From the human T2T-CHM13v2.0 reference genome, Homo sapiens, in NCBI RefSeq assembly GCF_009914755.1, contig NC_060925.1: a stretch of 64,000 nucleotides of DNA. One strand, 5' to 3'. The position numbers and the translations under genes were made by a program. Below the pieces are notes generated by a model, which saw only the letters and a program-made list of their open reading frames with translations, was not told where the DNA came from and searched no databases. Each line of letters starts with the position of its first letter. Position 1 is the first letter of the stretch. Positions 36,401 through 41,520 of this stretch are shown piece by piece.

Positions 36401-38154
36401 GCTATTATTAGCTGTTAATATTTAGTGGGCCATTGAAACAACATAGGCTCTATTGCCATTTGGGCTGCTGATCTGAAACAGGTGGCCAGACTTCATTGAG
36501 GGATGACCTTTGCAAGGTGTGATTGAGGGTATGGGATTGAAGGAAATTTGGGATTTTTTGAGTGAGGACTGAGTTCCTGCAGGAGATATAGTCACCCCAA
36601 AGGGAGTTACCAGGTCCAGATGGAATTATTTCCAGTGGAATGTGCACACAAATTCTTTGACACAAGTAAGGAAGTATTACTACTTAGTTATCTATATGTG
36701 AATCTGCACAGAAAACTGAAAGAACTCTGTTGCTACCTTGCTTTTGCTTTTTTGAGGGAGAAGACAATCAAGTGTGAAGCCAGGCAAACCTTTGAACATT
36801 GTTATTAAGGCAGAAAAAGCCTTCTTCCTCTACTTTCCCATCCTCTCCTTCCTCACTGTCTGTTTCTCCCTCTCTGTAAACACAATGGGACATTTCATTT
36901 CAAGAGTGTGTCTTGTTGAGGTGGGGCAGAAGGGTTTGGTGGTTTTATCAGACTGTTTAACCATAAAATGTTTTTCATCCCTGTGTTCCTGTGCCCCACC
37001 ATTTCAGGCACTTGGTATTTTTACTGCCTCACCCCCATCAACAGAGAAAAGGTGGATTTGATGTCATTTATTATATACTTTAAAGTAATTTTATTTTGCT
37101 GAATTTGTAAATACATGCAAATGAAATATTTTAGAGCTACAAAAACAACCATGGCCAGATATGTATGAACGAGGTCTTTCCCAGTCCCCCTCTGGGTTTT
37201 GCACAGATTTATTCTGAGGGTCCCTTAGTCCAAACTGGGGGATCCGCAGACAAAGAGATCAATATTTTTCTCTTCTAAATTCAAAAGGCAAGGTGCAGGT
37301 ATGAGACATTAAATTTTGAAAGAAGACGCTACTGGGAACATTTTTTTCCTTCTACTCCACCCCTATCCAGAATAGAAAAAAGACCATCTAAACAAGAGTG
37401 GAGAGGAGTTTGGAGAAAAAGTAGAGTAGGTTGTAGTGTATGGGCTGGGCCTGTGCTCTTCCCTTGCCCCAGACTGAGTGTGAGGAGTGGTGAATAAGAA
37501 CACCACAAACCTGTCTGTACGTATGGGAATCCCAGAGCTGAGAGGACACGTGTCTCCTTTTCTTAGTGTCACCAAGATGACTGCAAACCCTGTAGAGAGG
37601 CCCTTCAGTGCTGTGGAGTGGAAAACTTGGTTTCACATGTTTGGCCTTGCTTGTTGGAGAAATTCAGACCCCTGAGTTTCTCTTAGCCCTAAAATGGCAT
37701 GAGAGGACATCTGAAATTATCAATTATTCTTGTTCCCTTCTTAGATTCTTGCTTGTCTTCCTTTTCATCATTCTGATCTATCTTTAAGAGAGGTCACTTT
37801 TCAAATTCTATCTTTAAGAGGTTTTAGGTCTCAATATATTGGGTTTTCCCTTCAATATGGGTCCATTTTGGACTCTAAACCTCAAGTTTCCTTTTATGTG
37901 GTTCCCTCTTTACATTTATTCCTTGATACTTTCCCAGACCTGTTTCCAGAACCAAAACCATCTCTTCATTTAAAATATTCTGAAATTTCTTTATCTACTC
38001 CCTTAAGTCATTTCACTCTTTCTGAGCCAATTTGATTTTCCAAGATTTTACTGATTGGCCCTTAGCTTTGTGATAATGTCCTTCAGCATTCCTTCCTCTT
38101 TGGTGCAGTTGGCAGTTTCATGTCCAATATATTAGGGCCCCAGTTATCACTGTC

Positions 38155-38316
38155 ATTCTTTTCTTTTCTCTTCTCTTCTCTTTTCCCTTTCTTTTCCTTT
38201 CCTTGCCCTGCCCTCCCCCATCCCCCCTCCTCACCCCTCCCCATCCCCCTCTCCCCTCCCCACCCCCCCTTTCTTCTTTTCTTTTCTTTTCTTTCTTTTT
38301 TTTTTTTCCTCTTTTG
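38155..38316. repeat. C/T-rich low-complexity tract
   Basis: Direct read; C-runs give G-runs on the minus strand. Confidence 0.85.
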
Positions 38317-38319
38317 AAT

Positions 38320-39038
38320 ATTTAATTTGGAATGAAATTGGCAATCATACAATATAACAATTGTATATGTTCAGGTTTAAAAGATAGAGTCAAACACTTT
38401 TCCAAATTGATGGTAACAGTTTATGTTCCCAAGAGCAGTGTATGAATGTTCCAGTTGATCTACATTCATGATGTTTGTCTTTTTTATTTTAGCCATTTCA
38501 ATGGATGTGTATTGGTATACTATCGTGGTGTTAATTTCCTGTTCTCAATTGACAAGTGAAATGGACCACATTTCACATGCTTCTTAGCCATTTGGATATC
38601 TTTTTTGTGAAGTGCCTGTTCAAGGTGTTTGCCCATTTTTCTTTTTTCTTTTTTTGGAAAGGAAAAAATAAATCTCTCTTTGCTAGAAGATTTATAATCA
38701 CCTATATACAAAATAAAAAAACTATTTAAAACGCTACTAGAAATAATAAGTGAGTTTAGGATAATTTGAGGATAGAAACTCAATATACCAAAATCAATTA
38801 TACTTCTACATACTAACAGTGAACAATCAGAAAGTTTAAAAGTTTAAATGCTATTTACAATAGCTTCCAAAATCATCAAATACATAGAAATAAATCTAAC
38901 TGAATCTGTGCAAGATTTGTATAATGAAAATTACAAAACCCTGAAGAGAGAAATTAAAGAATACTTAATAGAGAGATATACTATATTATTGGATTAATAT
39001 TGGGAAGATGTCAATTCTGCCCAAATTGATCTTTAGAT
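38320..39038. mobile_element. Two old L1M fragments in opposite orientation (minus ~38320-38645, plus ~38665-39038)
   Basis: tttttgtgaagtgcctgttcaag (antisense) and ctactagaaataataagtgagtttag...gtcaattctgcccaaattgat (sense ORF2). Confidence 0.7.
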
Positions 39039-39045
39039 TTCTTTC

Positions 39046-40839
39046 TTTTTTTTTTTTTTTATTGATCATTCTTGGGTGTTTCTCACAGAGGGGGATTTGG
39101 CAGGGTCATAGGACAATAGTGGAGGGAAGGAAGGTCAGCAGATAAACAAGTGAACAAAGGTCTCTGGTTTTCCTAGGCAGAGGACCCTGCGGCCTTCCGC
39201 AGTGTTTGTGTCCCTGGGTACTTGAGATTAGGGAGTGGTGATGACTCTTAACGAGCATGCTGCCTTCAAGCAGCTGTTTAACAAAGCACATCTTGCACCG
39301 CCCTTAATCCATTTAACCCTCAGTGGACACCGCACATGCCCCAGCAAGCACAGGGCTGGGGGCAAGGTCACAGATCAACAGCATCCCAAGGCAGAAGAAC
39401 CCCTCCCAGTACAGAACAAAATGAAGTCTCCCATGTCCATTTCTTTCTACACAGACACAGCAACAATCTGATCTCTCTATCTTTTCCCCACCTTTCCCAC
39501 TTTTCTATTCCACAAAACCGCCATCGTCATCATGGCCCATTCTCAATGAGCTGTTGGGTACACCTCCCAGACGGGGTGGTGGCCGGGCAGAGGGGCTCCT
39601 CACTTCCCAGAAGGGGCAGCTGGGCAGAGGTGCCCCCCACCTCCCTCTTGGATGGGGCGGCTGGTCGGGCGGGGGCTGAACCCCCACCTCCCTCCCGGAC
39701 GGGGTGGCTGGCCGGGCGGGGGCTGAACCCCCACCTCCCTCCCGGACGGGGCGGCTGGCGGGGCGGGGGCTGAACCCCCACCTCCCTCCCAGACGGAGTG
39801 GCTGCCAGGCGGAGACGCTCCTCACTTCCCAGATGGGGCGGCTGCCGGGCGGAGGGGCTCCTCACTTCTCAGACGGGGCGGCTGCCGGGTGGAGGGGCTC
39901 CTCACTTCTCAGACGGGGTGGCTGCCGGGCGGAGGGGCTCCTCACTTCTCAGACGGGGTGGCTGCCGGGCGGAGGGGCTCCTCACTTCTCAGACAGGGTG
40001 GCTGCTGGGCGGAGACGCTCCTCACTTCCCAGATGGGGTGGCTGCCGGGCGGAGGGGCTCCTCACTTCCCAGACGGGGTGGCTGCCGGGTGGAGGGGCTC
40101 CTCACTTCTCAGACGGTGCGGCTGCCGGTTGGAGGGGCTCCTCACTTCTCAGGTGGGGCAGCTGCCGGACGGAGGGTCTCCTCACTTCTCAGACGGGGTG
40201 GCCGGGCAGAGACGCTCCTCACCTCCCAGACGGGGTCGCGGCGGGGCAGAGGCGCTCCCCACATCTCAGACGATGGGCGGCCGGGCAGAGACGCTCCTCA
40301 CTTCCTAGACGGGATGGCGGCCGGGCAGAGGGGCTCCTCACATCCCAGACGATGGGCAGCCAGGCAGAGACGCTCACTTCCCAGACGGGGTGGTGGTCGG
40401 GCTGAGGCTACAGTCTTGGCACTTTGGGAGGCCAAGGCAGGCGGCTGGGAGGTGGAGGTTGTAGCTAGCCGAGATCACGCCACTGCACTCCAGCCTGGGC
40501 AACATTGAGCACTGAGTGAACGAGACTCTGTCTGCAATCCTGGCACCTCAGGAGGCTGAGGCTGCTGGATCACTCGCGGTTAGGAGCTGGAAACCAGCCC
40601 GGCCAGCACAGCGAAACCCCGTCTCCACCAAAAAAATATGAAAACCAGTCAGGCGTGGCGGCACGCGCCTGCAATCGCAGGCACTCGGCAGGCTGAGGCA
40701 GGAGAATCAGGCAGGGAGGTTGCAGTGAGCCGAGATGGCAGCAGTACAGTCCAGTTTCGGCTCGGCATCAGAGGGAGACCGTGGAAAGAGAGGGAGAGGG
40801 AGACCGTGGGGAGAGGGAGAGGGAGAGGGAGAGCGAGAG
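39046..40839 (-). mobile_element. Full-length SVA retrotransposon (SVA_C-like)
   Basis: Poly-T 39046-39060, SINE-R ~39061-39560, GC-rich VNTR ~39560-40400, Alu-like ~40400-40785, (AGAGGG)n hexamer to ~40839; TTTCTTTCTTT on both flanks as likely TSD. Confidence 0.95.
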
Positions 40840-41520
40840 CTTTTCTTTCTTTCTTTCTTTTTCTTTCCTTCCTCCCTTCTTTCTTTCCTTTTCTTTCCTT
40901 CCTCCCTTCTTTCTTTCCTTCCTTCTTTCTTTCCCCTCTCTCTTTCCTCTCTTTCTTCTTCTCCTCTTCCTCCTCCCCCTCCTCCTCCTTCCCCTTCTCC
41001 TCCTTCTCTTTTTTTCTTCTTTCTTTCCTCTTCTTCCTTCTTCTTTCTTCTTCTTTTTTCTCCCTTCCCCCTTCCTTTTTCCCCTTCCCCCTTCCTCCTT
41101 CCTTCTCTCTCCTTTCTCCCTCTTCTCTTCCTCCTTCCCCTCCTTTCTTCTCCCTTTCTTCTCTTCCTCCTCCTCCTCATCTTCTTCTCCGCCCCCCTCC
41201 TCCTTTCTTTCTTCTCCTTCTCCTCCTCCTCTTTTTCTTTTTCTTTCTTTCCTTTCTTTCCTTTATTTCTTCCTCCTCCTCCTTCTCCTCTTCCTTTCTC
41301 CTCTTTTTTTCTTTCTTTTTCTTTCTTCCATTTGTTCTTTCTTCCTCTCTGTCTCTCTTTCTTTCTTTTGTCTTTCATTCATTTGTTCTTTCTTTCTCTC
41401 TCTTTCTTTTTTCTCTCTCTTTTTTTTTCATTTGTTGTTTTCTTTCTCCCTTCCTTCCTTCCTCTTTTCTTTCTCCCTCCTCCTCTTCATGATCCTCCTT
41501 CTCCTTCTTGTTCTTTTGGC
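40840..41520. repeat. ~680-bp polypyrimidine/polypurine tract
   Basis: No purine on the + strand from 40840 to 41178; few thereafter. Confidence 0.95.

What the first reader, a model, noticed from the sequence alone, without database searches (positions are those of the whole stretch)
39335..39475. SVA SINE-R carries a dense sense-strand A>G cluster: possible genomic fossil of an ADAR hyper-edited RNA
Seen: the + strand reads atgCCCcag (39339-41), gggCtggggg (39356), ggCaagg (39363), gaaCCCCtcCCag (39400-03, 39406-07) and atgtcCa (39438). The SVA/HERV-K LTR5 consensus as I recall it has atgTTTcag, gggTtggggg, ggTaagg, gaaTTTTtcTTag and atgtcTa. That is ~12 T>C in 100 bp (possibly also 39371 and 39473, where subfamilies differ), while the flanking SINE-R is near consensus. 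On the SVA sense strand these are A>G. Known: ADAR prefers 5' U/A neighbours and disfavours 5' G; APOBEC3 editing and CpG decay give G>A/C>T instead. The contexts fit ADAR: CTAAGAAAAATTC became CTGGGAGGGGTTC, sparing only the A after G; UAG>UGG; UAC>UGC. One site after G is changed. Inference: the source RNA was A-to-I hyper-edited and L1 reverse transcriptase fixed the inosines as G, so RNA editing was written into germline DNA.
Basis: partly seen in the sequence, partly recalled or inferred. Interest (0 to 1): 0.85.

Follow-up and report, generated by a model that had tools for sequence, protein, structure and literature searches.

The report
Inherited A-to-G cluster in an SVA
The dense A-to-G cluster in this SVA retrotransposon is real and looks like RNA editing written into DNA, but this copy inherited it from an older source element that also seeded at least eight other insertion sites in the genome.

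Summary
The minus-strand SVA at 39046-40840 carries C at 39339-41, 39356, 39363, 39371, 39400-03 and 39406-07. Most SVAs and 15 HERV-K LTR5 copies carry T there, so the changes are derived A>G on the SVA sense strand. Site 39371 is ambiguous.

The cluster is not private to this insertion. The full haplotype sits in 10 copies at 9 independent loci. Partial versions occur on unrelated SVA backgrounds. The event therefore predates this copy.

Against their nearest all-T relatives, these copies differ by only 12 consistent substitutions in 639 aligned positions, all sense A>G within 69 bp.

The cluster is an extreme case of a wider footprint. In the SINE-R 5' half (39314-39548), A>G variants occur at 27 of 67 A sites against 4 of 62 T sites in an unbiased sample. 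The 5' neighbours follow U>A>C>G, with 3' G enriched. The asymmetry is absent from the SINE-R 3' half and from LTR5 copies.

Best reading (about 0.55): ADAR-type editing of SVA source RNAs, fixed by L1 reverse transcription and then propagated. No double-stranded partner was found. A polymerase-eta-like DNA mechanism is not excluded.

The parts
39046..40840 (-). Full-length SVA retrotransposon (hexamer, Alu-like, VNTR, SINE-R, poly-A), inserted in a TC-rich low-complexity stretch. A possible short target-site duplication (TTTCTTTC-like) is ambiguous.
   Evidence: 2515 candidate matches in the same genome, of which the 40 scored were 93-100% identical
39046..39061 (-). Poly-A tail, read as a T-run on the + strand.
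39062..39560 (-). SINE-R module, derived from the HERV-K env 3' end and LTR5. It aligns to 10 HERV-K proviral 3' ends at 84-89% over 39164-39548.
39561..40407 (-). VNTR, with 40-bp and 47-bp units.
40408..40770 (-). Alu-like region. Boundaries are read from the sequence and are approximate.
40771..40840 (-). 5' (CCCTCT)n hexamer region, read as GAGAGG on the + strand.
39339..39407 (-). The lineage-defining cluster: 12 sense-strand A>G changes (39339, 39340, 39341, 39356, 39363, 39371, 39400-39403, 39406, 39407). The polarity of 39371 is ambiguous. Ten copies at 9 independent loci share it.
39314..39548 (-). SINE-R 5' half. Across the SVA family this segment shows a strand-specific A>G excess with ADAR-like neighbour preferences. 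The asymmetry fades below about 39314.
39438..39438 (-). Sense A>G outside the cluster, shared with 2 of the 29 nearest copies. It is a recurrently hit site (8 of 45 in the enriched sample, 3 of 16 in the unbiased one).
39129..39132 (-). A 4-bp insertion private to this copy, in a GGAA-type short repeat.

Best explanation
The window holds an old member (roughly 10-15 Myr by private divergence) of a small SVA sub-lineage. A source element of that lineage acquired 11-12 sense-strand A>G changes within 69 nt of the SINE-R.

The most likely mechanism is A-to-I deamination of SVA source RNA by an ADAR enzyme over a double-stranded stretch. L1 reverse transcriptase would read inosine as G, and the edited copy would insert in the germline. 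That copy then acted as a source for at least 9 insertions, this one included.

The event may have taken one burst or a few rounds. It is an extreme instance of a family-wide process acting on the SINE-R 5' half (39314-39548), where the same adenosines have been converted repeatedly in unrelated SVA lineages.

Shown here: the derived state, strand specificity, clustering, sharing among loci, region limits and neighbour preferences. Inferred: the enzyme, the RNA stage and the double-stranded partner.
For: 1. Polarity. T on the + strand (sense A) is the state in 15 HERV-K LTR5 copies and in 16 of 16 unbiased SVA copies.

2. Burst-like change. The full-C group differs from its nearest all-T relatives by 12 consistent substitutions in 639 aligned positions. 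All are sense A>G and lie in 39339-39407. With the 12 sites masked, the two groups intermingle in a tree. Of 19 polarisable sense A positions in 39335-39410, 11 are cluster sites and two more are already G in nearly all SVAs. The window keeps only six of the 19.

3. Inheritance. Ten copies share the haplotype and nine have unrelated flanks.

4. ADAR-like context. In 39314-39548, pooled over 61 copies, A sites with A>G in at least 2 copies have 5' neighbours U 9, A 20, C 2, G 5 (one unscored). Unchanged A sites have U 0, A 6, C 7, G 17. A 3' G follows 13 of 37 changed sites against 4 of 30 unchanged. Depletion of G upstream and enrichment downstream is the published ADAR and hyper-editing motif (passages read in PMC4365171, and PMC2873906). 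Site 39404, an A after G in the middle of the tract, is unchanged in 0 of 45 copies.

5. Strand and region specificity. In the unbiased sample, minority derived alleles number A>G 31, T>C 7 (binomial p 4.6e-4), G>A 13 and C>T 15. In the 5' half, A>G occurs at 27 of 67 A sites against T>C at 4 of 62 T sites (p 7e-6). In the 3' half it is 10 of 63 against 4 of 55.

6. Controls. The same segment in 15 LTR5 copies is symmetric, A>G 12 and T>C 11. The Alu-like region of the same SVA copies shows only a weak excess, 21 of 50 against 22 of 88. These argue against a DNA-context hotspot, an alignment artefact, or an element-wide reverse-transcriptase or transcription bias.

7. Recurrence. Multi-site C haplotypes of the tract 39400-39407 occur on early, middle and young SVA backgrounds.
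Against: No double-stranded partner was found. The unedited SINE-R RNA folds no better than shuffles (z = +0.62). The minimum-energy fold of a whole SVA RNA gives only 6-8 bp helices in this segment. The window holds no inverted SINE-R or LTR5 copy, although that would matter only at the unknown source locus.

Graded intermediates show that not all 12 changes need have arisen together. Four-gamete conflicts with background markers (39424, 39432, 39492) require either recurrent hits or recombination.

The preference for A after U or A is also the polymerase-eta hotspot (WA); this point is recalled, not tested. One cluster site, 39341, follows a G.

The samples are small: 45 copies chosen for similarity or for C states, plus 16 unbiased copies, all from the first 113 Mb of chromosome 1. 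Pattern-search counts are lower bounds, and one control search was visibly incomplete. In cell culture ADAR1 restricted L1 without editing L1 RNA (PMC5224506, passages), so editing of retrotransposition templates is not a given.
Confidence: 0.55

Rival explanations
1. Error-prone DNA synthesis. A polymerase-eta-like enzyme, recruited to copy the G-rich VNTR template, carries on into the adjacent SINE-R 5' half while making the sense strand. It leaves WA>WG errors in source elements and perhaps in resident copies.
For: The changed sites are WA sites: 29 of the 35 WA sites in 39314-39548 are hit. The footprint is specific to SVA, which has a VNTR, and absent from LTR5, which has none. It lies on the VNTR-proximal side of the SINE-R. 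Private changes within the full-C group still lean to A>G in the 5' half, 6 against 1 T>C. The polymerase-eta WA preference and its role at structured DNA are recalled, not tested.
Against: The lineage cluster lies 150-220 nt from the VNTR, with no lineage change in the 140 nt between them. A patch starting at the VNTR should be densest next to it. Twelve errors in 69 nt is far above what one such patch should give (recalled error rates). The 3' G enrichment fits ADAR. The bin profile shows a plateau and then a drop rather than decay with distance.
Confidence: 0.15
2. Reverse-transcription errors. L1 ORF2p misincorporates dC opposite rA, for example under a biased dNTP pool, during one or several retrotransposition cycles.
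For: This would also give sense-strand A>G that is inherited only through retrotransposition. Biased-pool hypermutation of retroviruses is recalled from the literature.
Against: The effect should span the whole template, but the SINE-R 3' half is symmetric and the Alu-like region shows only a weak excess. It does not predict the avoidance of 5' G and 5' C or the 3' G enrichment. Twelve hits in 69 nt is far above the L1 reverse-transcriptase error rates I recall.
Confidence: 0.08
3. Ordinary lineage divergence. The C states accumulated one by one by neutral mutation in successive source elements, or were spread by gene conversion, template switching or selection for G-rich motifs, with no special mutational mechanism.
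For: Nested haplotype classes exist, with lower-bound counts: TCTTTT 33, CCTTTT 4, CCTTCC 4, CCTCCC 4, CCCCCC 8. Conflicts with background markers suggest some recombination.
Against: Twelve of 12 consistent differences are one strand-specific class in 69 bp, with no CpG or other change alongside (probabilities). Partial haplotypes are not contiguous tracts (for example L070 and L021). LTR5 copies with the same sequence show no asymmetry. Selection does not explain why 37 of 67 A sites but only about 3 of 62 T sites vary.
Confidence: 0.1
4. The RNA that produced this very insertion was hyper-edited, so the cluster is unique to this locus.
For: Only two sense A>G changes are special to this copy. 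39438 is shared with 2 of the 29 nearest copies. 39473 is private among SVAs but equals the HERV-K state.
Against: Nine other copies at eight other independent loci carry the same 12 states. The window's 11 private substitutions are of mixed type: A>C, C>G, T>G twice, C>T three times, G>A, G>T and A>G twice.
Confidence: 0.03

Closest known systems
APOBEC3 G>A 'DNA editing' fossils in endogenous retroviruses and retrotransposons (Carmi et al. 2011, recalled; Knisbacher and Levanon, Mol Biol Evol 2016, PMC4866542, methods passage read; Zaranek et al. 2010, PMC2873906, passages read)
   Same: Clusters of one strand-specific transition type, made by a deaminase during the copying cycle, frozen in the germline and sometimes propagated.
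   Different: The direction and chemistry are opposite. Here the change is A>G on the sense strand, not G>A, and the context is U/A upstream rather than GG or GA. G>A and C>T show no excess.
ADAR hyper-editing of long double-stranded RNA, as mapped in RNA-seq (Porath et al. 2014, PMC4365171, passages read)
   Same: Dense A>G clusters, G depleted upstream and enriched downstream, and a large share of adenosines hit within a bounded stretch.
   Different: Those are RNA-level events, mostly in inverted Alu pairs with an identifiable antisense partner. Here the changes are in genomic DNA, in the SINE-R of SVA, are inherited by several loci, and have no partner identified.
The proposal that RNA editing of retrotransposons can be written back into mammalian genomes (Knisbacher and Levanon 2015, Ann N Y Acad Sci 1341:115). 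The paper is not held; I saw only its citation in other papers' reference lists, and its content is recalled.
   Same: The same concept: ADAR-edited retroelement RNA, reverse transcribed and integrated.
   Different: I could not check whether SVA, this segment or this lineage is described there. My ten literature searches found no paper describing an A>G footprint in the SVA SINE-R.
A>G hypermutation of retroviral and RNA-virus genomes attributed to ADAR. The idea was raised for an endogenous mouse mammary tumour virus in PMC12548423, but those authors found the ADAR context missing (passage read).
   Same: An A>G excess in a retroelement copy, read as ADAR action.
   Different: In that case the sequence context did not fit ADAR. 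Here it does.

Membership tests
SVA retrotransposon | Composite order of hexamer repeats, antisense Alu-like region, VNTR, SINE-R and poly-A tail | tested here: met
   Searches show all five modules in order on the minus strand. The SINE-R matches other genomic copies at 93-96%, and the Alu-like part matches 33 other loci.
SVA retrotransposon | Target-site duplication from L1-mediated insertion | tested here: inconclusive
   Both flanks are TC-rich low-complexity DNA. A TTTCTTTC-like repeat is present on both sides but is not diagnostic.
Canonical SVA subfamily consensus (SVA_A to SVA_F) | The C states are those of a named subfamily consensus | not testable with these tools
   No Dfam or Repbase consensus is available. 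Indirectly, 16 of 16 unbiased SVA copies lack the haplotype, and only 8 of 2044 pattern matches carry the exact 21-mer. It is therefore not the consensus of any large subfamily.
Genomic fossil of ADAR A-to-I editing | Derived changes are A>G on the transcribed-sense strand only | tested here: met
   for the cluster; for the family-wide excess (31 against 7; 27 of 67 against 4 of 62).
Genomic fossil of ADAR A-to-I editing | Clustering beyond chance within a bounded stretch | tested here: met
   Twelve sites in 69 bp of 499 (about 4e-9). The footprint has a boundary near 39314.
Genomic fossil of ADAR A-to-I editing | Neighbour preference: 5' U or A favoured, 5' G disfavoured, 3' G favoured | tested here: met
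   5' neighbours of changed sites are U 9, A 20, C 2, G 5; of unchanged sites U 0, A 6, C 7, G 17 (5' G p 2e-4). 3' G is 13 of 37 against 4 of 30 (p 0.05).
Genomic fossil of ADAR A-to-I editing | A double-stranded RNA partner for the edited stretch | tested here: not met
   No stable intrinsic structure (z = +0.62). Only 6-8 bp helices in the whole-SVA fold. No inverted copy in the window. The source locus and any antisense transcription could not be examined.
Genomic fossil of ADAR A-to-I editing | Changes arise at the RNA stage, so that an offspring differs from its source at birth | not testable with these tools
   This needs source-offspring pairs, ape orthologues or retrotransposition assays. 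The sharing among 9 loci shows only that the changes passed through retrotransposition.
APOBEC3 DNA-editing fossil | Sense-strand G>A clusters in GG or GA context | tested here: not met
   With the HERV-K outgroup the changes are A>G, not G>A. G>A and C>T are balanced and not in excess.

The most novel reading that the evidence does not exclude
ADAR editing of a defined segment of about 235 nt of SVA RNA (the env-tail and 5' U3 part of the SINE-R, next to the VNTR) has repeatedly been copied back into the germline by L1. If so, much of the sequence diversity that separates SVA lineages in this segment is fossil RNA editing, including recurrent multi-site hits at the same adenosine tract. The window's 12-site cluster would be the most heavily edited lineage that went on to propagate. 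The sharp boundary near 39314 would mark the end of a double-stranded region, for example the start of an antisense transcript from the LTR-derived promoter.
Probability: 0.4. Interest if true: 0.8.

Novelty: new member of a known kind. Interest (0 to 1): 0.62.

Why it matters
Deaminase footprints in retroelements are well documented for APOBEC3 (G>A). Germline fixation of ADAR editing has been proposed, but few concrete, propagated examples are known to me.

This case offers three things: a lineage of 9 loci carrying a 12-site edited haplotype, a bounded hot segment, and internal controls (the SINE-R 3' half, the Alu-like region and LTR5 copies). Together they make the question directly testable with ape T2T genomes, polymorphic SVA insertions and ADAR1-knockout retrotransposition assays.

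If confirmed, RNA editing would be a real source of heritable sequence change and of subfamily diversification in the youngest active human retrotransposon family. The hot segment would also mark a recurrent double-stranded RNA structure of SVA transcripts, which bears on innate immune sensing.

For the locus itself the consequence is modest. This is an old, fixed-looking intergenic or intronic SVA between RPTN and hornerin.

Tried and rejected
- Rfam scan of 38500-41500: no match.

- Alu-like region as a source of extra lineage markers: too CpG-rich and noisy to separate the full-C group.

- Mirror-image control by genome pattern search, counting A>G in the neighbouring + strand A-run: abandoned. 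The search returned 799 matches and omitted copies that I know match, such as L087. I drew no counts from it.

The unbiased sample stayed at 20 loci, of which 16 are SVA and 4 are LTR5-like.

- Intrinsic double-stranded RNA: a SINE-R fold, a whole-SVA fold and an inverted-repeat search gave no long helix. The one curiosity is that the derived G-run (39394-39406) is 85% complementary to a motif in seven VNTR units. At 13 nt it is too short to count as an ADAR substrate.

- Gene conversion from the VNTR as the source of the G-run: rejected. The similarity is reverse-complementary, not direct.

- APOBEC editing and CpG decay: rejected on polarity and context.

- Assembly error: unlikely, because the same haplotype is assembled at 9 other places. 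No reads or other assemblies could be checked.

- Literature: ten searches and passages from nine papers gave nothing on an A>G footprint in the SVA SINE-R. Knisbacher and Levanon 2015 is not held. Wang et al. 2005 on SVA subfamilies was not looked up and is recalled only. No supplementary files were opened.
Full report
WHAT IS THERE

Window 39046-40840 is a full-length SVA on the minus strand. Its parts are a T-run (the poly-A tail) at 39046-39061, the SINE-R at 39062-39560, a VNTR of 40- and 47-bp units to about 40407, an Alu-like part to about 40770, and hexamer repeats to 40840. It sits in TC-rich low-complexity DNA, and any target-site duplication is ambiguous. Rfam finds nothing there.

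IS THE CLUSTER UNUSUAL, AND WHICH STATE IS DERIVED?

A DNA search of the window's own genome with the SINE-R gave 2515 candidates. The 40 best were scored, and 29 non-self loci were fetched. A per-site tally against those 29 shows the following.
- The window's C at 39339-41, 39356, 39371, 39400, 39402-03 and 39406-07 is shared by 9-13 of them. The rest have T.
- C at 39363 and 39401 is shared by 18 of 29.

For polarity I located HERV-K (HML-2) proviruses with the env Pfam model and fetched 16 env-end and 3' LTR stretches. I aligned 15 of them to the window. They carry T at essentially all cluster sites. The exception is 39371, which is polymorphic in both HERV-K and SVA.

An unbiased sample took every fifth of the first 100 genome matches to a degenerate 21-mer, starting from the second. 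That gave 20 loci, of which 16 are SVA and 4 are LTR5-like. All 16 SVA copies have T at these sites, apart from single hits in two copies.

The C states are therefore derived, and they are A>G on the SVA sense strand.

THE CLUSTER IS NOT PRIVATE TO THIS COPY

The exact window 21-mer across 39397-39417 occurs 8 times in the genome, against 2044 matches to the T/C-degenerate pattern and 1860 to the all-T version. These counts are lower bounds.

Ten copies carry 11-12 of the 12 C states: the window, L002-L008, L010 and L011. L003 on contig C17 and L004 on C8 share 96.9% identical flanks over 996 bp, so they are one insertion later duplicated. The others share only Alu-type flank matches. That leaves 9 independent loci.

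Private divergence of these copies from their group majority is 4-14 substitutions per 499 bp. At the usual neutral rates this suggests an age of roughly 10-15 Myr, which is an inference.

The window's own private changes are 11 substitutions of mixed type plus a 4-bp insertion. Only two are sense A>G, at 39438 and 39473, and 39473 equals the HERV-K state. The copy inherited the cluster.

BURST OR STEPS?

Between the full-C group (9 copies, with the duplicate twin dropped) and the 10 all-T copies that intermingle with it in a tree built with the 12 sites masked, there are 12 consistent substitutions in 639 aligned positions. All are sense A>G and all lie in 39339-39407. No CpG transition or other change accompanies them, which speaks for one or a few rapid events.

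Pattern searches nevertheless reveal graded haplotypes of the tract 39400-39407. Lower-bound counts are TCTTTT 33, CCTTTT 4, CCCTTT 1, CCTTCC 4, CCTCCC 4, CCTCTC 1, CCCTCC 1, CCCCCC 8, TTTTCC 5 and TTTCCC 1. Over the whole cluster there are copies with 2, 4, 5, 7 and 10 of the 12 C states.

These partial haplotypes sit on early (HERV-K-like), middle and young SVA backgrounds. Either the same adenosines were hit repeatedly or lineages recombined. The partial patterns are not contiguous tracts, which argues against simple gene conversion.

A FAMILY-WIDE FOOTPRINT

I classified non-CpG variants against the HERV-K state, requiring 10 close copies with at least 8 agreeing.

- Enriched sample. This was 45 copies. 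I dropped four loci that duplicated others and one segmental-duplication twin. Variants shared by at least two copies are sense A>G at 38 sites, against T>C 5, G>A 6 and C>T 6. Private variants are balanced, at 26, 18, 25 and 23.
- Unbiased sample. Among 16 SVA copies, minority derived alleles are A>G 31, T>C 7, G>A 13 and C>T 15. The binomial p for A>G against T>C is 4.6e-4.

The asymmetry is confined to the SINE-R 5' half.

| Segment | Sample | Sense A>G | Sense T>C | p |
|---|---|---|---|---|
| 39314-39548 | enriched, shared variants | 35 of 67 A sites | 3 of 62 T sites | 1e-9 |
| 39314-39548 | unbiased | 27 of 67 | 4 of 62 | 7e-6 |
| 39062-39313 | enriched, shared variants | 4 of 63 | 3 of 55 | 1.0 |

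In 50-bp bins, the share of U/A-preceded adenosines that vary is 1/6, 1/6 and 3/8 below 39314, then 5/6, 8/9, 7/7, 8/12 and 1/1 above it.

Two internal controls argue against artefact and against element-wide causes.
- The same segment in 15 LTR5 copies is symmetric, with A>G 12 and T>C 11.
- The Alu-like region of the same SVA copies shows only a weak excess, 21 of 50 A sites against 22 of 88 T sites.

CONTEXT

I pooled 61 copies and looked only inside 39314-39548.

| | 5' U | 5' A | 5' C | 5' G | 3' G |
|---|---|---|---|---|---|
| 37 adenosines with A>G in at least two copies (one 5' neighbour unscored) | 9 | 20 | 2 | 5 | 13 of 37 |
| 30 other adenosines | 0 | 6 | 7 | 17 | 4 of 30 |

Depletion of G upstream and enrichment downstream is the ADAR and hyper-editing motif reported by Porath et al. 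2014 (passages) and Zaranek et al. 2010 (passages).

Inside the window's cluster, the A after G at 39404 is untouched in all 45 copies, while its neighbours on both sides are converted.

MECHANISM

The best-supported account is A-to-I editing of SVA source RNA over a bounded double-stranded stretch. L1 reverse transcriptase would read inosine as G. The edited copy would insert in the germline and then act as a source.
- Shown here: polarity, strand specificity, clustering, inheritance, region limits and context.
- Inferred: the enzyme and the RNA stage.

The weakest point is the missing partner strand. The unedited SINE-R RNA is no more structured than shuffles (z = +0.62). A whole-SVA fold gives only 6-8 bp helices there. 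The window has no inverted copy. An antisense transcript starting near the boundary, or an inverted SVA or LTR5 at the unknown source locus, would be needed. Neither could be tested.

In cell culture ADAR1 bound the L1 ribonucleoprotein but did not edit L1 RNA (Orecchini et al., passages). Editing of retrotransposition templates cannot be assumed.

RIVALS

- Polymerase-eta-like synthesis. Error-prone synthesis of the sense strand just downstream of the G-rich VNTR would also give SVA-specific, strand-specific, VNTR-proximal WA>WG changes. Against it, the lineage cluster lies 150-220 nt from the VNTR with nothing in between. The bin profile is a plateau with a drop rather than a decay. The 3' G enrichment fits ADAR.
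- Reverse-transcriptase misincorporation. This should not be region-limited.
- Neutral stepwise divergence, gene conversion or selection. None explains 12 of 12 changes being one strand-specific class, or 37 of 67 A sites varying against about 3 of 62 T sites, while LTR5 copies with the same sequence are symmetric.
- APOBEC editing and CpG decay. Both are excluded by polarity.

KNOWN OR NEW?

APOBEC G>A fossils in retroelements are established (PMC4866542, PMC2873906). The idea that ADAR-edited retroelement RNA can re-enter the genome is in print (Knisbacher and Levanon 2015), but that paper is not held here, and I recall only its title and gist.

Ten full-text searches found nothing on an A>G footprint in the SVA SINE-R. 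I therefore file this as a new member of a known kind.

The caveats are the small samples, the lower-bound pattern counts, one failed control search, and no access to Dfam consensus sequences, ape genomes or sequencing reads.

VERDICT

The signature is ADAR-like, but it is a propagated lineage haplotype, and it is an extreme case of a broader SVA footprint. My confidence in the ADAR mechanism is about 0.55.

Noticed in passing
window 39394-39406 versus seven VNTR units (for example 39851-39863, 39891-39903): After the A>G changes, the tract reads GAAGAACCCCTCC on the + strand. This is 85% complementary to a motif repeated in seven VNTR units, so the edits raise the complementarity between SINE-R and VNTR. 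At 13 nt it is too short to be an obvious ADAR substrate.
   Followed up: partly
window 40842-41480 and 38149-38329: Long TC-rich low-complexity arrays flank the SVA. The one at 40842-41480 abuts the hexamer end, which makes the target-site duplication unreadable.
   Followed up: no
window 39879-40379: The RefSeq 'enhancer' feature in the hub's table lies entirely inside the SVA VNTR.
   Followed up: no
L003 (G000:C17:36.14 Mb) and L004 (G000:C8:8.41 Mb); L075 and L076 (G000:C15:18.1 and 19.4 Mb): Two pairs of SVA copies share flanks (96.9% over 996 bp, and 99.7% over 999 bp). They are segmental duplicates, not separate insertions. The eight SINE-R differences within the first pair are of mixed type.
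   Followed up: partly
genome-wide matches of GAAYYYYTCYYAGTACAGAAC: Four of 20 systematically sampled matches are LTR5-like elements rather than SVAs, so about a fifth of the 2044 matches are probably LTR5. A single-C variant (C at the position of 39403) is in 5 of the first 100 matches and in one LTR5-like copy. It may mark a subfamily rather than editing.
   Followed up: partly
The genome search pattern AGTACAGRRCRRRRTGRAGTCTCCYATG: The search returned 799 matches but missed copies that match exactly, such as L087. Pattern counts for very common repeat words are incomplete and should not be used as censuses.
   Followed up: yes
window 39314-39548, private changes of the full-C copies: Seven sense T>G changes are private to single full-C copies in the 5' half, including the window's own 39331 and 39345. 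That is an unexpectedly common transversion class in so small a set.
   Followed up: no
window 39345-39346: A private dinucleotide change in this copy (CA where 28 of 29 copies have AG) sits in the middle of the A>G cluster but is not of A>G type.
   Followed up: no
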